DNA of 64,000 bases from Thermoplasmatota archaeon (GTDB lineage Archaea; Thermoplasmatota; Poseidoniia; Poseidoniales; Thalassarchaeaceae), in assembly GCA_036138175.1 (NCBI GenBank), contig JAZAAK010000014.1, positions 20,572-84,571 of the forward strand. Direction: 5' to 3'. The notes beneath the pieces are model-generated. The model had not been told where the DNA came from and ran no database searches. It saw only the letters and a program-made list of their open reading frames with translations. Below, in pieces: positions 4,248 to 17,679 of the stretch (the stretch's first letter is position 1; each line of letters starts with the position of its first letter). A program made the position numbers and the translations under genes.

Positions 4248-4679
4248 ATGAGTAAGATTCCCGCTGTCAAACTACAGCAATTAATGGGTCTCGATGAGTA
4301 TGAATTGACCTTAGCCATCGATAGGGTAGCCAGCGAGTTAGGCATCACTGCAGAAGAGGTTCAATCAGAACTTGATTCGTTAGACTCTGGTTCTTCTTCA
4401 AACCAAATTGAATCTCCCCCACCTTTAGAACCACCACAACGAAAATCGATATTTTCACGAAATCAATCAACCTCCGGAGACGATTCTCCAACATTTGTAT
4501 CGGATGTATCAAAATTCAGAGTATCCTACGATCCAAGCCATGAAGGGAAAAAAAGACAGCAACAAGTCAATCAGGCAATTGTCTGCACTAATTGTTCCGT
4601 ACCGCTCGGTATTCCAAATATCAGACCGATCAAGGTAACCTGCCCTTCCTGTGGGGTTGAAACCACATACGAGAGTTAG
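4248..4679 (+). CDS. Small protein with an acidic N-terminus and a C-terminal CxxC...CxxC zinc ribbon. Function unknown
   Basis: ORF with ATG start. CTNC...(17 aa)...CPSC spacing is typical of zinc ribbons. It has a Ser/Pro-rich linker. Confidence 0.5.
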   Translation: MSKIPAVKLQQLMGLDEYELTLAIDRVASELGITAEEVQSELDSLDSGSSSNQIESPPPLEPPQRKSIFSRNQSTSGDDSPTFVSDVSKFRVSYDPSHEGKKRQQQVNQAIVCTNCSVPLGIPNIRPIKVTCPSCGVETTYES

Positions 4680-5896
4680 ATACCCCAGTATCGATTGCTA
4701 CCGTCATCATCTGTTTCCGCAGTAACTGAATCAATTGCAGTCTTCAGAAGATAGTAGAATACAATCGCGATAATTGGGAAGAACCAGGTGTCAGATACAT
4801 TGCCTGCAGTAATGTCGTAACCTTCACCACCCAACTCAGCTAATGTTACCTCAATAACAGCCTTTGTAATCGAATAAACCACTGCTCCAAGTCCTACCAG
4901 TATCAAACTTTGACCTGTGAATGACCCTTCCTTCCAACGTAGAACACCAAGGGAAAGAACGAATGAGAAAGCGGAGACTAGAATCCACGTTAATGCTTGA
5001 TCAATTGCAATTACCCAAACCGCAAAATCTCGATTGACTGCGTCTAAGTCGAAACTGTCAATTCGACGGAATGTGTCCAAAACATAGGCATTTAATTCTG
5101 CAGGGTTGCCGTAGAAAACCGAATAGAAAGTTAAGATTGAAAACAACACTGAAACAATGGATAACCCCCATAACAAAGAAGACCAAATTCCTCCAGTTGC
5201 ACTTTCTCTCATGTCAATCATTAACCGCTCCAATTGGTGTTCCCAACCTAATCCCTTGGCAAGAATCCAGATTCCTATAATCAATGGCATTGCACCGATT
5301 AGAACAGCGCCATTTGGTAAAATCAAGCCGAGTCCAAAGATAATCAAAAACAAAGCAGCAGGAACGAGTAATCGCGCCCTCCAACGAGGGTCTTCGATTG
5401 CCTTGGCGACGTAGTAGTAAGTACTCTCAATTCCCTTTGATTGCCTCACAATAATCTTCTCAACGTGATCGACCCTTACTCTAGATGTTAGGATTGGTAG
5501 TGACGCTTCATCATCTGCTCCATCGGTGACTAACACGGCTGTATCCGGTTGAAATTCCTGAATCACTTCGTCGAGTTGGCTCGCAATCGCTCGGTCTGAC
5601 CGAGGGCCAACTCGGACATCACCAGTCAGAATTGCAATTTCAATTTCATCTTCGCCATCATTCCTCTCACTCAATCGGTCGTGATGATGAAGGGCTCCTA
5701 GAATGGCGTTTGTATCGGACTCTTCAGGGTCAGCAATACCTAGTTTTAGGGCCGCAGTCAAGGTCGCTTTACGACCGATTACTGGCCCCCTAATTCCAGC
5801 TTTAACTCCAAGATCATTGTCTCTGTCAATGGTGATAACGAGTGTCCGCACCATACTGGAAGCCTCCGTTGCGATGTGCAATGAGGCCTTCCCCAT
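4676..5896 (-). CDS. DUF373-family archaeal membrane protein
   Basis: N-terminus MVRTLVITIDRDNDLGVKAGIRGPVIGRKATLTAALKLGIADPEESDTNAI matches the conserved DUF373 N-domain. Several TM helices follow. Confidence 0.7.
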   Translation of the reverse strand: MGKASLHIATEASSMVRTLVITIDRDNDLGVKAGIRGPVIGRKATLTAALKLGIADPEESDTNAILGALHHHDRLSERNDGEDEIEIAILTGDVRVGPRSDRAIASQLDEVIQEFQPDTAVLVTDGADDEASLPILTSRVRVDHVEKIIVRQSKGIESTYYYVAKAIEDPRWRARLLVPAALFLIIFGLGLILPNGAVLIGAMPLIIGIWILAKGLGWEHQLERLMIDMRESATGGIWSSLLWGLSIVSVLFSILTFYSVFYGNPAELNAYVLDTFRRIDSFDLDAVNRDFAVWVIAIDQALTWILVSAFSFVLSLGVLRWKEGSFTGQSLILVGLGAVVYSITKAVIEVTLAELGGEGYDITAGNVSDTWFFPIIAIVFYYLLKTAIDSVTAETDDDGSNRYWGI

Positions 5897-7122
5897 TATG
5901 AAGAATCGGCAGGATTGCTTGTTTCAGAAGCACCTTCGGTGCGTTCTGGAGTTTCTTCGGTTTGAGATGAACGTACTTCATTTTGGTATCGCCTTTTTTG
6001 TTTGGCTCTGAGATATTTCAGCGGATGGTTCATCCACTCCTGATCACACAAACGATCGTCTCCCGGATTAACTGGGCAGCGAGCACCAGTCTTCAGTGCA
6101 GAGCATCCGTGAGGTGTGTATTGGTGTTCATAGATATGGCCGACTTGGTATGAAGTAGTCTCTGCATTGTAGTCTGGGGCGTTTTCGAAAAATGAGCAAG
6201 TAATTTCTGGCGTATGCCCCATAGCCCTTGACATTGCGGCCAAGAAGACTCGCCCTGTATGATTGACATTGATGCCTTGACTCAATTCAGCCACTGCAGA
6301 TTCGAAGCAAGGCGGCCAATCCTCTCGGACAGCCGCCGTCATTGGCATCTCGGCGCTAACCCTTTCAGAGAGTAGGCCGAGAATTCTGTCGACGGGGTCA
6401 GCAAAAAGGGCTGCAAATGCATCATCCATCTTGTCCATGCGGTCGGTACAATCCTCTGTCAAAGATTGTCTAACTCGTTCCTTCAATAGACGCGCAGTGC
6501 GCTGTTGACTATTCTCTCCGCTGGCTGGATCCATCTGAACCCAGCCTTCTTTCACCGGCCGATTTACCAATCGCCAATATCCACCGGTTATTTTTGGACA
6601 AAGTTCCAAGAAATCTACCATTGGAACGTGATAGATAATTTCGGTCGTACCTGCAACCGTCTCGCTGCGAATATCAGAGAGATAGGTGCGAGCGATAATT
6701 TCGAAGTGATTAGCATCCATTCCAAAGAGTTGGTCGGCACGACTAGATTCTCCTTCCACCCAGCGATTTAGCAGACGTTCTTCGAAGGAAGCACAAACGA
6801 CCAGCATGGCATGCAGGAAGGATAGAGCCTCGGTCATTCTGCCTACGTCTGAAGAGAGGTCGACGGTAGTGGTGGAGTCAACCCCTTCCTTGTGAACTAC
6901 TGACTCAACCAAGCGTAAACTTCCACGACGTCTTATGTCTTCCAGCCAAGGTTCTTCGATGAGTCCCTCAACAGAAATTCCATTTGCACTTAGTTGGTTA
7001 CGAATAAAATCTCGACTCTGTGGAAGGAATGGATAGCGCGCTAGAACGGACTCATCTTCGACGGCCGGTGGAGTGAGCGGCATTGGCATTGTAAGTCGCA
7101 ATATATCGAGAGGGTATTTCAA
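5896..7122 (-). CDS. priL: DNA primase large subunit PriL
   Basis: Conserved WPPCF motif and four C-terminal cysteines (CSFF...CSALK...CPVNP...CDQEW) of the Fe-S domain. Overall length of 408 aa fits. Confidence 0.7.
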   Translation of the reverse strand: MKYPLDILRLTMPMPLTPPAVEDESVLARYPFLPQSRDFIRNQLSANGISVEGLIEEPWLEDIRRRGSLRLVESVVHKEGVDSTTTVDLSSDVGRMTEALSFLHAMLVVCASFEERLLNRWVEGESSRADQLFGMDANHFEIIARTYLSDIRSETVAGTTEIIYHVPMVDFLELCPKITGGYWRLVNRPVKEGWVQMDPASGENSQQRTARLLKERVRQSLTEDCTDRMDKMDDAFAALFADPVDRILGLLSERVSAEMPMTAAVREDWPPCFESAVAELSQGINVNHTGRVFLAAMSRAMGHTPEITCSFFENAPDYNAETTSYQVGHIYEHQYTPHGCSALKTGARCPVNPGDDRLCDQEWMNHPLKYLRAKQKRRYQNEVRSSQTEETPERTEGASETSNPADSS

Positions 7123-13624: not shown

Positions 13625-14116
13625 ATGCCTACCATGGTTAGAATGACGACAAGCGCTGGAGATATTGACATTGCACTGTATACAGAGGATTGTCCTGAGA
13701 CAACAGGCAACTTCCTCAGATTGGTGGACGAGGAATTCTACAACGGATTACACTTTCACCGCGTCATTAAGAATTTCATGATTCAAGGCGGATGCCCGAG
13801 ATCAAAGGACCCATTCGATGGAAGAGCAGGAACAGGCGGCCCAGGTTGGAAAATCCCTTGCGAGGCATCGGCATTGGCAAAAAAACACGACAGACCAGGG
13901 CTATTTTCCATGGCGAACGCAGGCCCTAACACAGGTGGCTCACAATTCTTCCTAACAACCGTTCCAACACCTTGGTTAGACGGTAATCATGCTATTTTTG
14001 GAGAGGTTATTGCAGGTATGGAGAATGTCTACAAGATTGAGAACTGTGATACGAAGCCCGGCGATAGGCCGTATGACCCTCAAAAAATCATCTCTGTTCA
14101 GCGATTAGAAGAGTAA
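13625..14116 (+). CDS. Cyclophilin-type peptidyl-prolyl cis-trans isomerase
   Basis: HFHRVIKNFMIQGGCP and FSMANAGPNTGGSQFF cyclophilin signatures. Confidence 0.85.
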   Translation: MPTMVRMTTSAGDIDIALYTEDCPETTGNFLRLVDEEFYNGLHFHRVIKNFMIQGGCPRSKDPFDGRAGTGGPGWKIPCEASALAKKHDRPGLFSMANAGPNTGGSQFFLTTVPTPWLDGNHAIFGEVIAGMENVYKIENCDTKPGDRPYDPQKIISVQRLEE

Positions 14117-14130
14117 TCGTTGTATAGAAA

Positions 14131-14165
14131 GCCAATAATTAATTTTATTAATAACTAATTAACAG
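14131..14165 (+). promoter_or_regulatory. 29-nt almost pure A/T block with palindromic sub-elements (aattaatt; ttaataa/ttattaa) immediately upstream of the RHH-fumarase gene. Candidate TATA/BRE plus operator
   Basis: ccAATAATTAATTTTATTAATAACTAATTAAcagg seen directly in the sequence. It is striking in a ~47% GC genome. Confidence 0.3.
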
Positions 14166-14172
14166 GCTGTTT

Positions 14173-15774
14173 ATGGCCAAACATCGGGCGGGCGACCGTC
14201 GCATAATCAGTATCAGCATACCAGAAGAGCTTGCAAGGAAGCTAGACAGAAGGGTCGGGAAGGGCCGAAATGATGGTAGATCCGCAACAATAACAAAAAT
14301 GATACAAAACGGTTTGGAAACTGAGCAAACCGTAGCAATACAAACCCCAGTTAGCGAGCAAAGAAGCGCATCTGGAGTCACAGGTGAAATCAGAATCGAA
14401 AAAGACACCATGGGAGAGTTAGAAGTCCCAGCAGATCGATACTTCGGAGCGCAAACCGCTCGCTCTCTAATCAACTTCGATATAGGTACTGACACGATGC
14501 CGCCGTCAGTAATCAGAGCCTTCGGGATTCTAAAACAAGCGGCGGCAGAAACTAATGTTGATCTCGGCCAATTGGACCCTCAGATTGGCGCTCTAATTTC
14601 TTCTGCTTGCGATGAAGTAATCTCTGGCTCATTGGATGAACATTTTCCGCTTCGAGTTTGGCAAACGGGTTCGGGGACACAAACCAACATGAATAGTAAC
14701 GAAGTAATTGCTAATCGAGCAATAGAGATGGCCGGAGGTGAATTAGGTAGCAAATCACCCGTGCACCCTAATGATCATGTAAATCGCGGCCAATCCAGCA
14801 ATGACACTTTCCCAACAGCAATGCACATCGCAGCCGCCGAGGAAATCCACCATCGATTATTGCCTGCGGTTAGATTACTACATAATGCTCTGGCAACAAA
14901 GGCGGATGAGTTTGAAAATATAGTAAAAATCGGCCGAACTCACTTAATGGACGCAGTCCCACTTACTCTTGGTCAAGAATTCGGCGGCTATGTTTCCATG
15001 TTATCATCTGATATTCAACGAATTGAAGCCGCTTGGGACGATTTGCTACAGTTAGCTCTGGGTGGTACAGCAGTTGGAACGGGCCTAAACACCCATTACG
15101 AATTCGCCGACAAAGTAGCCGATAGAATCGCCGAGAAGACTCAATTACCATTCGTCTCGGCTGAAAATAAGTTTGCTCAATTAGCGGCTCATGATGCAAT
15201 CGTAGCAGCCTCAGGAGCACTCAACACTCTCGCTGTAAGTCTAATGAAGATTGCAAATGATATTCGTTGGATGGGTTCAGGGCCACGCTGCGGATTTGGT
15301 GAATTATCTCTACCAGCCAATGAACCAGGCTCGAGTATCATGCCAGGAAAGGTGAATCCAACTCAATCCGAAGCTATGACAATGGTGTGCTGCCAGGTAA
15401 TGGGTAACCACACAGCGATTAGCGTCGGAGGCAGTCAAGGAAATTTTGAACTCAACGTCTTCAAACCTTTGATGATCTACAATTTACTACACAGCACTAG
15501 GTTGCTCGCGGACACTTGTAGGGCCTTTACCGAGAAATGTGTTGATGGGCTTGAAGCCAATGAAGGAGTAATCGCTTCTCATCTTGAGAATAGTTTGATG
15601 CTGGTCACAGCTCTGAACAATCACATTGGATATGATAGCGCTGCAAAGATTGCAAAACACGCTCACTCAAGTGGTTCTACACTAAGGGAGTCAGCGCTTG
15701 AACTTGGATTAGTCACAAACGATCAATTTGACCAATGGGTGAAACCTAGAGAGATGATAGGCCCTAAAGAGTAG
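14173..15774 (+). CDS. fumC: Class II fumarate hydratase with an in-frame N-terminal ribbon-helix-helix (CopG/Arc-like) domain
   Basis: Fumarate-lyase signature [17 protein letters not shown] and [18 protein letters not shown]. Homology to FumC begins at [23 protein letters not shown]. The preceding ~70 aa contain [21 protein letters not shown], a beta-strand/helix RHH pattern. No stop codon separates them. Confidence 0.8.
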
Positions 15775-15775
15775 T

Positions 15776-15975
15776 CTAACTGGAGTTAGTTCTGAACTAA
15801 CGAAATCATACATTGAAGGGAGAAAGGCTCCGCAATGATTGATAATTAGATGGAATGGGGCTCAGCCGTACTTTGGTACAAGGTGGGAGCAGCAGGGGGT
15901 TCTGCACATGGGGGAGCATCCCCCCCTGCTATCTCCGCAGGGTCCGGTTCCATCCGGGCTTGCGCCCTTTTTTTC
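15776..15975 (+). ncRNA. Candidate structured RNA element (3'-UTR structure or small RNA). It has two alternative hairpins at the fumC stop, a long interrupted G/C stem, a CCGG hairpin and a terminal GGGC-ttgc-GCCC stem followed by T7
   Basis: Inverted repeats read directly. These are ctaac-tgga-gttag / gttagt-tctga-actaac (15776-15801), ggagcagcaggggg...ccccctgctatctcc (15886-15937) and guccgg-uuccau-ccgggc. The T7 run lies at 15968-15974. No Rfam family was recognised. Confidence 0.2.
15954..15975 (+). terminator. GC stem (gggc-ttgc-gccc) followed by TTTTTTT
   Basis: Seen directly in the sequence. The oligo-T is consistent with archaeal termination signals downstream of fumC. Confidence 0.4.
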
Positions 15976-15984
15976 CCGGGTAGA

Positions 15985-16545
15985 TGACTACATTGCTCCG
16001 AAGAGCCTTTTCGTCGTTTCCCGCTTCTTCGAGGATCGCTCCCCGTTTCTGCGTTTCCATTTCCCTCCCCGGCTCTCACCGGTTTGTTCTTTGGAATGAG
16101 TGCCGGTCCTCCACGCGTCTCCGCGCTCTTGTTCCCGCCGCGTTTCCCTCTGGTTTCTTTTCCCCTTCCTTGCGTCCAGTTTTTGTCTTCCTTTGTTCCC
16201 CGCAGATTCGCCTCAAGCTTTTCCCATCTCTGGTTCTCTCGCTCTTCGCTTATGCACTCACGGCCTGGTTAGTTGGCACGGTATGCGTTTTCCCTGCCTA
16301 AGCAGTGCGGTTGTGTTTTCCCCAACTTTCCCTGTTGCTTCCTTCCCCTTCCTTTCGTCCGGTTTTCTCCACCTCAGTTCGACCGTATCTCCCCTGGCCC
16401 AAGTGCCAAGTTCGATCATCCCCGGTCCCCTTGCGGTTTCCGGTTCTACCACCCCGAGTTCGGGGTTCGGTTCTGTGGCCCGCGGTGTTTGCCGAAGCTC
16501 GCACCACACCACTCTCCCAGAGCGGCATCTTTGGTCTGAACGGCG
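15985..16545 (+). repeat. Long strand-asymmetric polypyrimidine (C/T) tract. It is GC-rich, low-complexity and non-coding
   Basis: Sampled 60-nt lines contain 46-51 pyrimidines out of 60 on the + strand (77-85%). All six frames give overlapping short ORFs with low-complexity translations (P/S/F/L-rich on +, G/E/R/K-rich on -) and none is credible. Confidence 0.6.
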
Positions 16546-16635
16546 GAGGCACATAAACATTTCGCTAAATGAGGTACTGTGGACCGGAAATAGGGGTCTA
16601 GGGATGTTAATTTCCACTGCATCCCAGGCCGAGAA

Positions 16636-17679
16636 TTACCGATTTCTTAACATCCTTAGACGAGCTCGAAGATCTGATTTTTCAGAATATTCTTCAGGCT
16701 CTTCTTGATGTGAATTTATTCTTCTCTTCATAACTTCAGATTCTACAAAGTAGACTCTTCCCTGGTCATCTGCGAGTACTATTCTATTGAATGATGAATC
16801 CATCTGTCGTAACCTAGAATCATGGGATATTTTATTCGATATTTCGCCAATTATCATTATCCAAACATTCATTCCATCGAAGGAAGATGCCCAACCATTA
16901 GTTTCGATAATTTCGACCGCATCAACAGAACCAGGTAGTTTTTCTGATACGGCTTTCATCGAGATGCTACCATCTTCATGACCAGAAATCCAGCCATTGG
17001 GACTAGAAGCAATCGAGGTAATCAACGATCCCGCCTCGAGTACCGATTCATCCAATGAACTCAAGGAGCCATCAGCGTGTCCAAAAATCAAATCTTTATT
17101 TTCTCCAGAACCACAGGTGACTGGACTGTTTGTTGGTAGCGCGTTATGCTCGACAGGGGCTTCAGGGCGAACTCTGAGATAACCGCACCTAGGTCGCCCT
17201 AAACCTAGAACAATTCCTCCAGAACCATCCGAAGAAATATGCCAAGCACGTTCAGCGACTACCCAACGTTCCAATTCATTTCCCAATTTATCGAATCTCC
17301 AAATGGTGGATTCGATGAAGTCGGCGACCTCTAACTCGTAAACTGATGAGGTCGCCCAGATATTCCCATCCACTGCTAATACATAGTCACTTGCTCCTTC
17401 CAATTTTTTATTCCAAAGAAGCAACCCATTCTCTATGTCAACTGCATGAAGAGAATTAGATGCTGCGACATAAACGCTGCCTGAATCTACAGAGATATCA
17501 GAAATCGGGCCGCTAATTGAAACTCTCCAACGTTCAACTCCGCTGGAAGCATCCCAGGAAACAAGTAATCCATCGTGCGACCCAGCGAATAGTAAATCCT
17601 CGACTAGAAGTAATGCGGAACAGGAGCTGAAAAGGTCTCGCACATAGGACGAGATAGCCTCAAGGGAAAGTCCGGCCAC
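16636..17679 (-). CDS. PQQ-like beta-propeller repeat protein
   Basis: Repeated ...DG.LYA.DA.TG...W pattern (LLVSWDASSGVERWRV, LHAVDIENGLLLWNK) typical of PQQ/BamB-like propellers. Confidence 0.6.
   Translation of the reverse strand: MAGLSLEAISSYVRDLFSSCSALLLVEDLLFAGSHDGLLVSWDASSGVERWRVSISGPISDISVDSGSVYVAASNSLHAVDIENGLLLWNKKLEGASDYVLAVDGNIWATSSVYELEVADFIESTIWRFDKLGNELERWVVAERAWHISSDGSGGIVLGLGRPRCGYLRVRPEAPVEHNALPTNSPVTCGSGENKDLIFGHADGSLSSLDESVLEAGSLITSIASSPNGWISGHEDGSISMKAVSEKLPGSVDAVEIIETNGWASSFDGMNVWIMIIGEISNKISHDSRLRQMDSSFNRIVLADDQGRVYFVESEVMKRRINSHQEEPEEYSEKSDLRARLRMLRNR

What the first reader, a model, noticed from the sequence alone, without database searches (positions are those of the whole stretch)
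14117..14400. Ribbon-helix-helix DNA-binding domain fused in frame to class II fumarase, behind an A/T palindromic block
Homology to FumC starts at about residue 75 ([23 protein letters not shown]). The ORF extends upstream through [24 protein letters not shown]...ITKMIQNGL, a pattern characteristic of CopG/Arc/MetJ-type RHH repressors, with no intervening stop. Immediately upstream is a 29-nt almost pure A/T element with palindromic sub-motifs (aattaatt, ttaataa...ttaattaa). This suggests an operator bound by the fused RHH, that is, an autoregulating or moonlighting TCA enzyme. Alternatively, a small RHH gene has lost its stop codon. RHH-enzyme fusions are known for PutA and NikR, but I am not aware of one described for fumarase.
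Basis: partly seen in the sequence, partly recalled or inferred. Interest (0 to 1): 0.55.

Follow-up and report, generated by a model that had tools for sequence, protein, structure and literature searches.

The report
DNA-binding domain fused to archaeal fumarase
In Marine Group II archaea, which are abundant in ocean plankton, the TCA-cycle enzyme fumarase carries a conserved N-terminal ribbon-helix-helix DNA-binding domain, so the enzyme probably also acts on DNA, most likely as a regulator of its own gene.

Summary
ORF 14173-15774 (533 aa) has three parts: a ~48-residue ribbon-helix-helix (RHH) domain, a ~24-residue linker and a complete class II fumarase (FumC).

It is not an accident of one genome. 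The RHH-FumC junction is in frame in 80 of 80 species-level Poseidoniales genomes fetched, and 255 matched the scan. Hundreds of 530-537 aa proteins in public databases have the same layout. They are named only 'class II fumarate hydratase'.

The RHH is under purifying selection as strong as the enzyme (dN/dS 0.033 vs 0.030). The linker varies in sequence but its length is fixed to within one residue.

The A/T block is first of all a promoter. TTTATTAA sits 28-32 nt upstream of the ATG in nearly all loci, position -1 is always a pyrimidine, and there is no Shine-Dalgarno motif. This fits a leaderless mRNA starting at Met1, and Met43 is not conserved. The palindromes inside the block are no more than chance for A/T-only sequence. 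The block is nonetheless the only one of its kind in 64 kb, and a 15-nt motif within it is conserved in 59 of 83 loci.

Best reading: a PutA-like 'trigger enzyme' that represses its own promoter. DNA binding and the operator are inferred, not shown.

I found no paper describing this fusion.

The parts
14134..14162 (+). 29-nt A/T block (28 of 29 A/T). It is the promoter region of the RHH-fumC gene and a candidate operator.
   Evidence: the only stretch in 64 kb with at least 26 of 30 A/T; conserved upstream of the gene in related loci.
14144..14151 (+). TTTATTAA, a TATA-box-like core starting 29 nt upstream of the A of the ATG.
   Evidence: single occurrence in the window; the core starts at -30 or -29 in 67 of 78 unique loci and always lies between -32 and -28; exact octamer in 72 of 83 loci; 70 of the 85 occurrences in 552 kb of MGII DNA are at this promoter.
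14148..14162 (+). Conserved 15-nt element TTAATAA-C-TAATTAA (family consensus TTAATAASTWATTAA). It overlaps the TATA core and extends toward the start site. It is either a promoter-proximal element or an operator half.
   Evidence: unique in the window with up to 2 mismatches; found with up to 2 mismatches in 59 of 83 loci, against 17 of 4150 shuffled upstream regions; variants do not strictly keep the dyad.
14173..14175 (+). ATG start codon (Met1) and probable transcription start of a leaderless mRNA.
   Evidence: position -1 is a pyrimidine in 83 of 83 loci; no purine-rich Shine-Dalgarno motif between -12 and -5; in-frame stop at 14152-14154.
14173..14316 (+). RHH domain, residues 1-48. It has a basic N-terminal arm ([10 protein letters not shown]), a beta-strand (IISISIP), helix 1 (18-30), a G-x-G turn and helix 2 (GRSATI..., 36-51).
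   Evidence: Pfam RHH_1; invariant residues. AlphaFold2 secondary structure; dN/dS 0.033.
14317..14388 (+). Linker, residues 49-72. The sequence varies and the length is conserved. About residues 48-60 are predicted disordered, and 61-72 are predicted to lie on the FumC body.
   Evidence: dN/dS 0.184, pN 0.555, and the FumC motif starts at residue 72-74 in all 68 sequences scored; pLDDT below 50 for 48-60 and about 80 for 61-70.
14389..15774 (+). Class II fumarate hydratase (FumC) body, residues 73-533, plus the stop codon. It keeps the signatures TGSGTQ (165-170), HPNDHVN (198-204) and the SS-loop [11 protein letters not shown] (386-396).
   Evidence: TIGR00979 769 bits against a cutoff of 664.75; invariant columns; best solved matches are fumarases, E about 1e-202, aligned from query residue 70-74 onward.

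Best explanation
The gene encodes one polypeptide that is both an active class II fumarase and a sequence-specific DNA-binding protein.

It is transcribed from its own strong TATA promoter as a leaderless mRNA that starts at Met1. FumC enzymes are homotetramers and RHH domains fold only as dimers (established knowledge of both families). The holoenzyme should therefore carry two RHH dimers on short tethers, an arrangement that recalls NikR and PutA.

The most likely role is that of a 'trigger enzyme', as in trifunctional PutA. The RHH dimers would bind the A/T-rich element that overlaps the TATA box and the region between it and the start site of its own gene. This would compete with TBP/TFB or RNA polymerase and tie fumC transcription to the amount of enzyme. 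It might also tie it to the substrate state of the enzyme.

Shown here: the fusion, its age, purifying selection on the RHH, the promoter geometry, and the uniqueness and conservation of the A/T element.

Inferred: DNA binding, the identity of the operator, repression, and any effect of fumarate or malate.

The confidence given is for the whole chain including autorepression. The fusion being real is about 0.97, and DNA binding by the RHH is about 0.7.
For: - Fusion is real and ancient. The junction is in frame in 80 of 80 GTDB species loci from both Poseidoniaceae and Thalassarchaeaceae, and 76 are full length at 530-538 aa. 255 genomes matched the scan. More than 120 full-length clusters of 529-545 aa were listed.
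- RHH identity. The domain alone scores above the Pfam RHH_1 gathering cutoff, and 16 of 16 orthologues hit it. The top PDB profile hits are two RHH proteins, the EndoAI antitoxin and NikR, aligned over strand plus helices. AlphaFold2 predicts an extended segment followed by helices 18-30 and 36-51.
- The domain is functional. dN/dS is 0.033 for the RHH, 0.030 for FumC and 0.184 for the linker. The residues RHH proteins use for DNA contact are invariant or nearly so: the N-terminal arm KHRxGDRR, S13 and S15 in the strand, and GRSA at the N-terminus of helix 2.
- Linker length is fixed to within one residue across the order.
- No separate start for FumC exists. There is no ATG, GTG or TTG in frame between Met43 and Met80, and Met43 is Leu in many orthologues.
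- Promoter geometry. The TATA-like core lies at -28 to -32, position -1 is always a pyrimidine, and there is no Shine-Dalgarno motif.
- The A/T element is unusual. It is unique in the window. It is almost exclusive to this promoter in 552 kb of MGII DNA. It is conserved over about 19 nt although synonymous sites are saturated, pS about 0.82.
- Precedent. PutA uses an N-terminal RHH as an autogenous repressor (PMC5293562, found).
Against:
- The palindromes in the A/T block are at chance level, and variants of the second half-site do not preserve a dyad.
- A subset of MGIIa loci lacks the second A/T half altogether (TTTATTAAAYGCC...), yet the RHH residues expected to read DNA are the same. The only element shared by all loci is the TATA-like octamer, which needs no repressor to explain its conservation.
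- The extended A/T run could be a promoter-proximal element that aids DNA melting.
- Foldseek with the monomer model found no RHH structure. The model has low confidence, pLDDT 66 and pTM 0.24.
- No second site was found in the 64-kb window.
- The metagenome motif scan was swamped by unrelated A/T-rich organisms and says nothing about a regulon.
Confidence: 0.45

Rival explanations
1. DNA-tethered fumarase. The RHH anchors the enzyme on the chromosome, specifically or loosely, so that fumarate and malate are interconverted next to DNA. This would be a hard-wired version of the role of class II fumarases in the DNA-damage response in yeast, human and Bacillus subtilis. It would not be a transcription regulator.
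For: Class II fumarase of B. subtilis is induced by DNA damage and co-localises with DNA, and the role is described as evolutionarily ancient (PMC5711358, PMC6068284). The RHH and its basic N-terminal arm are as constrained as the enzyme. No clear dyad operator could be shown.
Against: RHH domains are typically sequence-specific operator binders (established knowledge). The gene sits behind a unique, conserved A/T element at a fixed distance. Its neighbours are housekeeping genes with no obvious repair context apart from a PolD large-subunit gene some kilobases away.
Confidence: 0.15
2. Regulator of other genes. The RHH-FumC protein controls a regulon elsewhere in the genome, for example C4-dicarboxylate or TCA genes. 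The A/T block upstream of its own gene is only a strong BRE/TATA/proximal-element promoter.
For: The part of the upstream region shared by all loci is just a TATA-like octamer at the canonical distance. The RHH residues expected to read DNA are invariant, while the region downstream of the TATA differs between MGIIa and MGIIb subsets.
Against: No second copy of the motif occurs in the 64-kb window. None lies in front of any other ORF in 552 kb of related DNA. That sample is only a small part of each genome, so this is weak evidence.
Confidence: 0.2
3. Non-DNA role. The RHH-like module serves as an extra dimerisation or protein-interaction module, or as an intramolecular regulator of the enzyme, and no longer binds DNA.
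For: The domain has no detectable stand-alone relatives. Only 40 hits, all N-terminal pieces of this same protein, were found among 1.84 billion representatives. Linker length is fixed and residues 61-72 are predicted to pack on FumC, which suggests a geometric constraint relative to the enzyme.
Against: The conserved positions are those typical of DNA contact in RHH proteins: the basic arm, polar strand residues and the N-cap of helix 2 (assignment by established knowledge of the fold). No case of an RHH that has lost DNA binding is known to me.
Confidence: 0.08
4. Artefact. Two adjacent genes (a small RHH gene and fumC) were merged by a sequencing error, a lost stop codon or a wrong start call, and the real FumC starts downstream.
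For: Three public contigs (L001-L003) call the RHH as a separate 54-74 aa gene followed by fumC.
Against: Those three contigs are pilon-polished long-read assemblies in which neighbouring genes (PolD DP2, PEPCK) are also broken into pieces. The break lies in an A-rich homopolymer part of the linker, and the fumC frame stays open upstream of it. 80 of 80 other genomes are in frame. Protein-level constraint runs from Met1. No alternative start codon exists for a normal-length FumC.
Confidence: 0.02

Closest known systems
Trifunctional PutA (proline utilization A) of Enterobacteria
   Same: An N-terminal RHH domain of about 50 residues is joined by a linker to a metabolic enzyme. The enzyme moonlights as an autogenous transcriptional repressor (PMC5293562). 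This is the closest functional analogy, the 'trigger enzyme'.
   Different: The enzyme part is unrelated (flavin PRODH and P5CDH, not a fumarate lyase). PutA's switch is redox- and membrane-driven. Here no operator, ligand effect or switching mechanism is known, and the host is an archaeon with TBP/TFB-type promoters.
NikR
   Same: An RHH is fused to a domain that forms a tetramer, giving two RHH dimers per tetramer. NikR is among the best sequence matches of this RHH.
   Different: The C-terminal part of NikR is a small nickel-binding regulatory domain, not an enzyme. The sequence similarity is weak, with E values of 0.04-0.6.
Canonical class II fumarase (FumC, human FH, B. subtilis CitG)
   Same: Residues 73-533 are a full-length orthologue with all signatures. 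The best solved matches have E about 1e-202.
   Different: All solved fumarases align only from query residue 64-74 onward, and none of the listed chains matches the RHH region. Eukaryotic N-terminal extensions are targeting peptides.
Stand-alone CopG/Arc/MetJ-type RHH repressors and RHH antitoxins
   Same: The fold family is the same by sequence (Pfam RHH_1; EndoAI antitoxin is the top PDB hit).
   Different: The domain is not a separate small gene, there is no partner toxin, and there are no detectable stand-alone homologues of this particular RHH.

Membership tests
Class II fumarate hydratase (FumC, TIGR00979) | Full-length match above the curated equivalog cutoff | tested here: met
   769.2 bits against a cutoff of 664.75; residues 73-530 cover model positions 1-458.
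Class II fumarate hydratase (FumC, TIGR00979) | Lyase_1 and FumaraseC_C domains, and the catalytic signatures (SS-loop GSSxMPxKxN, HPNDHVN, TGSGTQ) | tested here: met
   Pfam hits. [11 protein letters not shown] at 386-396, HPNDHVN at 198-204 and TGSGTQ at 165-170 are invariant in 36 sequences.
Class II fumarate hydratase (FumC, TIGR00979) | Homotetramer with fumarate hydratase activity | not testable with these tools
   Needs purified protein. Inferred from about 55-60% identity-level matches to solved tetrameric fumarases.
Ribbon-helix-helix superfamily (Pfam RHH_1, CopG family) | Sequence match to the family profile at or above the gathering score | tested here: met
   The 52-aa domain scores 21.5 bits against a cutoff of 20.5. 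16 of 16 orthologues hit with E up to 0.01, best 5.5e-6. In the 76-aa and full-length contexts the score is 20.3 and 17.3 bits, just below the cutoff.
Ribbon-helix-helix superfamily (Pfam RHH_1, CopG family) | Strand-helix-helix topology | tested here: met
   AlphaFold2 predicts an extended segment at about 9-16, then helices 18-30 and 36-51. Confidence is moderate at pLDDT 66. The strand cannot be assigned in a monomer.
Ribbon-helix-helix superfamily (Pfam RHH_1, CopG family) | Three-dimensional match to solved RHH structures | tested here: inconclusive
   Foldseek of the monomer model against the PDB found no match. An RHH folds only as an intertwined dimer, and a dimer could not be modelled here.
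Ribbon-helix-helix superfamily (Pfam RHH_1, CopG family) | Dimerisation and operator DNA binding through the beta-ribbon | not testable with these tools
   Needs EMSA, footprinting or a structure.
PutA-like trigger enzyme (RHH-enzyme autorepressor) | N-terminal RHH, linker and enzyme in one polypeptide | tested here: met
PutA-like trigger enzyme (RHH-enzyme autorepressor) | Operator sites in its own control region | tested here: inconclusive
   A unique, conserved A/T element overlaps the TATA core. Its dyad symmetry is at chance level and is not kept in all lineages.
PutA-like trigger enzyme (RHH-enzyme autorepressor) | Substrate-dependent switch between enzyme and repressor roles | not testable with these tools
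   Needs biochemistry.
NikR | C-terminal nickel-binding regulatory domain | tested here: not met
   The C-terminal part is FumC. NikR models score 13-14 bits against cutoffs of 83-175.
Type II antitoxin of the RHH class | Small protein encoded next to a toxin gene | tested here: not met
   The domain is fused to an enzyme. Its neighbours are a cyclophilin gene and a non-coding element.

The most novel reading that the evidence does not exclude
The fumarase tetramer is itself a metabolite-sensing transcription factor, or a chromosome-bound enzyme. Catalytic or allosteric occupancy by fumarate or malate would change how its two RHH dimers engage DNA. A TCA-cycle intermediate would then be read out directly on the chromosome of one of the most abundant groups of marine archaea. 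This would also give a covalent, ancient precedent for the still puzzling link between class II fumarases and DNA transactions such as the DNA-damage response.
Probability: 0.3. Interest if true: 0.75.

Novelty: new variant of a known kind. Interest (0 to 1): 0.58.

Why it matters
- Annotation gap. Public databases name these proteins only 'class II fumarate hydratase', because the RHH falls just under the Pfam threshold in the full-length context. A DNA-binding function shared by every fetched genome of an ecologically dominant archaeal order is therefore invisible in annotations.
- A rare kind of protein. If the protein binds DNA, it would be a rare archaeal example of a central-metabolism enzyme that is also a DNA-binding factor. 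It would also be a second, independent RHH-enzyme 'trigger enzyme' besides PutA.
- Link to an open question. Why class II fumarases act in DNA-damage responses from bacteria to humans is unresolved (PMC5711358, PMC6068284). This fusion offers a new way to approach it.
- Testability. The protein is small and soluble and can be studied in vitro although the organisms are uncultured.

Tried and rejected
1. Stand-alone RHH genes. Three contigs (L001-L003) seemed to show a separate RHH gene. I rejected them as assembly frameshifts because neighbouring genes are also fragmented, the break lies in an A-rich homopolymer, and the fumC frame stays open upstream.
2. Palindromes as operator evidence. Rejected, because shuffles of the A/T block give equal or better inverted repeats in 47-69% of trials.
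3. Co-variation between RHH DNA-contact residues and promoter subtype. None was found. The residues are invariant and the subtypes do not follow RHH sequence variants.
4. Regulon search with the 19-nt motif in metagenomes. 16 of 121 sites were at this promoter, 10-13 nt from the ATG.
5. Foldseek with the monomer RHH model. No hits, judged inconclusive rather than negative.
6. Full HMMER search for distant relatives of the RHH. It returned only 40 hits, all fragments of this same protein, so the origin of the domain remains unknown.
7. Fragments with the RHH joined to other sequences (P0058, P0091, P0109). They lie on short contigs and were treated as probable chimeric assemblies. I did not follow them up.
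8. Literature. Seven searches found no description of an RHH-fumarase fusion. A survey of archaeal fusion proteins (PMC11237513) mentions only class I fumarase subunits.
9. Quaternary geometry. I could not compute where the four N-termini lie in the tetramer, because no coordinates or multimer prediction were available.
Full report
**What is in the sequence**

Window 14173..15774 (+) is one 533-aa ORF. An in-frame TAA at 14152-14154 excludes any start further upstream.
- Residues 73-530 match the class II fumarate hydratase equivalog TIGR00979 end to end, with 769 bits against a cutoff of 664.75.
- Pfam finds Lyase_1 at 81-411 and FumaraseC_C at 477-529.
- The catalytic signatures TGSGTQ (165-170), HPNDHVN (198-204) and the SS-loop [11 protein letters not shown] (386-396) are invariant among 36 aligned relatives.
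- Solved fumarases align only from query residue 64-74 onward. The first ~72 residues are therefore an extension that the aligned region of solved fumarases does not cover.

**Is the extension an RHH domain?**

By sequence, yes.
- The 52-residue N-terminus alone scores 21.5 bits on Pfam RHH_1, against a gathering cutoff of 20.5.
- Sixteen of sixteen diverse orthologous N-termini hit the same family, best E 5.5e-6.
- Within the 76-aa or full-length protein the score falls just below the cutoff, at 20.3 and 17.3 bits. This explains why the precomputed Pfam annotation of full-length relatives lists only the two fumarase domains.
- A profile of the domain finds two RHH proteins as its best PDB matches, the EndoAI antitoxin and Pyrococcus NikR. 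Both align over the strand and both helices, but with non-significant E values of 0.28 and 0.57.
- AlphaFold2 predicts an extended segment followed by helices 18-30 and 36-51, then a disordered stretch.
- Foldseek with this monomer model found nothing. I count that as inconclusive, because an RHH folds only as an intertwined dimer and the model is weak.
- NCBI itself names contig-end fragments of this protein 'ribbon-helix-helix protein, CopG family, partial'.

**Is the fusion real?**

Yes, and it is old.
- A search with the first 80 residues returned 104 proteins. All were short contig-end pieces or split calls from Poseidoniales. Most of those whose sequences I read run straight from the RHH into the FumC N-terminus.
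- An exhaustive HMMER scan of 1.84 billion representatives found only 40 hits. Those I inspected were N-terminal pieces of this same protein, including diverged ones at 49-55% identity that are still fused to FumC.
- A scan of one genome per GTDB species found 255 genomes encoding the domain. The 80 best loci were fetched.
- In all 80 the RHH continues in frame into FumC. 76 are complete at 530-538 aa. Three run off a contig end. Three have a frameshift or adapter sequence far inside the enzyme body.
- Both families of the order are represented, Poseidoniaceae (MGIIa) and Thalassarchaeaceae (MGIIb). The window itself is nearly identical to MGIIb-O1 genomes.
- A search with the whole protein lists 120 clusters of 491-545 aa, all but one of 529 aa or more. 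Where they carry a name, it is only 'class II fumarate hydratase'.
- The three contigs that call a separate 54-74 aa RHH gene (L001-L003) are pilon-polished long-read assemblies. Their neighbouring PolD and PEPCK genes are also fragmented. In L002 and L003, where I read the junction, the break is a +1 shift in the linker (A-rich in L002) and the fumC frame stays open upstream of it.

**Is the domain under selection, and where does translation start?**

Selection was measured on 61 close pairs of orthologues:

| Region | dN/dS |
|---|---|
| RHH | 0.033 |
| Linker | 0.184 |
| FumC | 0.030 |

- Over all pairs synonymous sites are saturated (pS about 0.82). pN is 0.13 for the RHH and 0.56 for the linker.
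- The linker varies freely in sequence, yet its length is fixed. The FumC motif R.E.D[ST]MG starts at residue 72-74 in all 68 sequences scored.
- The invariant or nearly invariant positions are M1, H4, R5, G7, D8, R9, R10, I11, S13, S15, P17, E18, A21, L24, D25, G29, G31, G35, R36, S37, A38 and I40.
- These include the basic N-terminal arm, the polar strand residues and the N-terminus of helix 2. RHH proteins use these elements to contact DNA. That assignment rests on general knowledge of the fold and was not tested here.
- Met43 is Leu in many orthologues.
- There is no in-frame ATG, GTG or TTG between codon 43 and Met80. A normal-length FumC therefore cannot be made separately.

**The A/T block**

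- 14134-14162 is 28/29 A/T, and it is the only stretch in 64 kb with at least 26 of 30 A/T.
- Across 78 unique related loci, a TTTATTAA-like core starts at -30 or -29 in 67 and always lies between -32 and -28 relative to the ATG.
- The exact octamer is present in 72 of 83 loci, and position -1 is a pyrimidine in 83 of 83.
- No purine-rich Shine-Dalgarno motif precedes the ATG, although many other genes in the window have one.
- This is the geometry of an archaeal TATA box serving a leaderless transcript that starts at the A of the ATG. That is an inference from established archaeal promoter architecture, and no TSS data were available.
47-69% of shuffles of the 29-mer do as well.
- Conservation and exclusivity are informative. 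A 15-nt motif TTAATAASTWATTAA, which overlaps the TATA core and reaches to about -11, is present with up to 2 mismatches in 59 of 83 loci. It occurs in 17 of 4150 shuffled upstream regions.
- That motif occurs once in the window.
- TTTATTAA occurs 85 times in 552 kb of MGII DNA. Seventy of those are at this promoter, and no other ORF has such a box 26-33 nt upstream.
- Against an operator reading: variants of the second half do not keep a dyad. A subset of MGIIa loci replaces it with TTTATTAAAYGCC-N6-GGC-like sequence, although the RHH residues expected to read DNA are unchanged.

**How it most likely works**

FumC enzymes are tetramers and RHH domains are obligate dimers, so a holoenzyme should carry two RHH dimers. 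The truly flexible tether is short. Residues 48-60 have pLDDT below 50. Residues 61-72 are predicted with pLDDT about 80 to lie on the enzyme. The fixed linker length fits a geometric requirement.

I think the most likely role is autogenous repression at the TATA/start-site region, as in trifunctional PutA (PMC5293562).
- Probability about 0.4-0.5: autogenous repression at its own promoter.
- About 0.2: regulation of other genes, with the A/T block being only a promoter.
- About 0.15: tethering of the enzyme to DNA in the spirit of the fumarase DNA-damage role (PMC5711358, PMC6068284).
- About 0.08: a non-DNA role.
- About 0.02: an artefact.

**Comparison with what is known, and novelty**

The architecture is the same kind of thing as PutA and, in oligomer logic, NikR. 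It is a member of neither family, because the enzyme part is a fumarate lyase and the NikR models fail. It is a bona fide FumC and, by sequence, an RHH_1 domain.

Seven literature searches found no description of an RHH-fumarase fusion. A dedicated survey of archaeal fusion proteins mentions only class I fumarase subunits. I therefore rate it a new variant of a known kind. It is moderately to clearly interesting because it is shared by every genome of an abundant marine archaeal order that I fetched. It is also unannotated, and it connects to the open question of why class II fumarases act on DNA-related processes.

**Side observation**

Immediately 3' of fumC, at about 15850-16640, lies a 790-nt stretch with no credible ORF. 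Its GC content is 55-58%, and the + strand is strongly pyrimidine-rich.
- It is conserved at the same place in 47 Thalassarchaeaceae loci. Another five loci keep only its last ~145 nt. It was not found in the MGIIa loci fetched.
- It is not coding. 52 of 57 indels are not multiples of three, and there is no period-3 signal.
- Several hairpins show compensatory changes.
- It has no Rfam match even at E up to 10.
- Read on the minus strand, several hairpins end in cUUCGg or GNRA loops. G-U versus A-C counts are mixed, so the strand is unresolved.
- This looks like an undescribed large structured RNA and deserves its own follow-up.

Noticed in passing
window 15850-16640 (also L004-L081 at about 4600-5480, just 3' of fumC): A ~790-nt conserved non-coding element with GC 55-58% and a strongly pyrimidine-rich + strand. 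It is present full length in 47 Thalassarchaeaceae loci at the same position. It has hairpins with compensatory changes and an internal repeated module (TTCCCCTTCCTTGCGTCCGGTT). 52 of 57 indels are not multiples of 3, and there is no Rfam match even at E up to 10. It is a candidate novel large structured RNA. Tetraloops favour the minus strand, but the strand is unresolved.
   Followed up: partly
L028, L041, L053, L082, L083 (about 4830-6055): Only the last ~145 nt of that element (GGCCYGCSG...CACACC...GAGCRGCA...ATAAAC...ATTTCC) is detectable in these more distant MGIIb loci. This suggests a more widely conserved core.
   Followed up: partly
MGIIa subset: L038, L046, L049, L052, L057, L060, L063, L064, L066, L067, L071, L074, L075, L077 (-20 to -6 from the ATG): Downstream of the TATA core these loci carry TTTATTAAAYGCC-N6-GGC-like sequence instead of the A/T motif. 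One (L075) is the perfect palindrome GCCGACGTCGGC. This could be an alternative operator or simply lineage drift.
   Followed up: partly
P0058, P0091, P0109 (public protein fragments): The same RHH N-terminus continues into unrelated sequence: a short-chain dehydrogenase (Pfam hits) in P0091 and unidentified sequence in P0058 and P0109. The contigs of P0058 and P0091 are short (938-2561 nt). These are probably chimeric assemblies, but real alternative fusions are not excluded.
   Followed up: no
P0001, P0011, P0056, P0118, L047 (ends of public contigs): Translated sequencing-adapter remnants (CLLYTSPSPRD, VSYTHLTLPTT, MCIRDR, LSLIHI) are left at contig ends. They create false C- or N-terminal extensions in the predicted proteins.
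   Followed up: no
L060 (NZEQ01000005.1): A contig carrying a typical MGII RHH-fumC gene is deposited under 'Verrucomicrobiales bacterium isolate ARS100'. It is probably a mis-binned contig.
   Followed up: no
window 13625-14116 and L001-L003: A cyclophilin-type peptidyl-prolyl isomerase gene lies upstream of RHH-fumC in the O1 clade and in L001-L003, with an asparaginase gene in between in L002 and L003. PolD large subunit and a phosphoribosyltransferase gene are also recurrent neighbours. Synteny is conserved, but RHH-fumC keeps its own promoter regardless of the upstream gene.
   Followed up: partly
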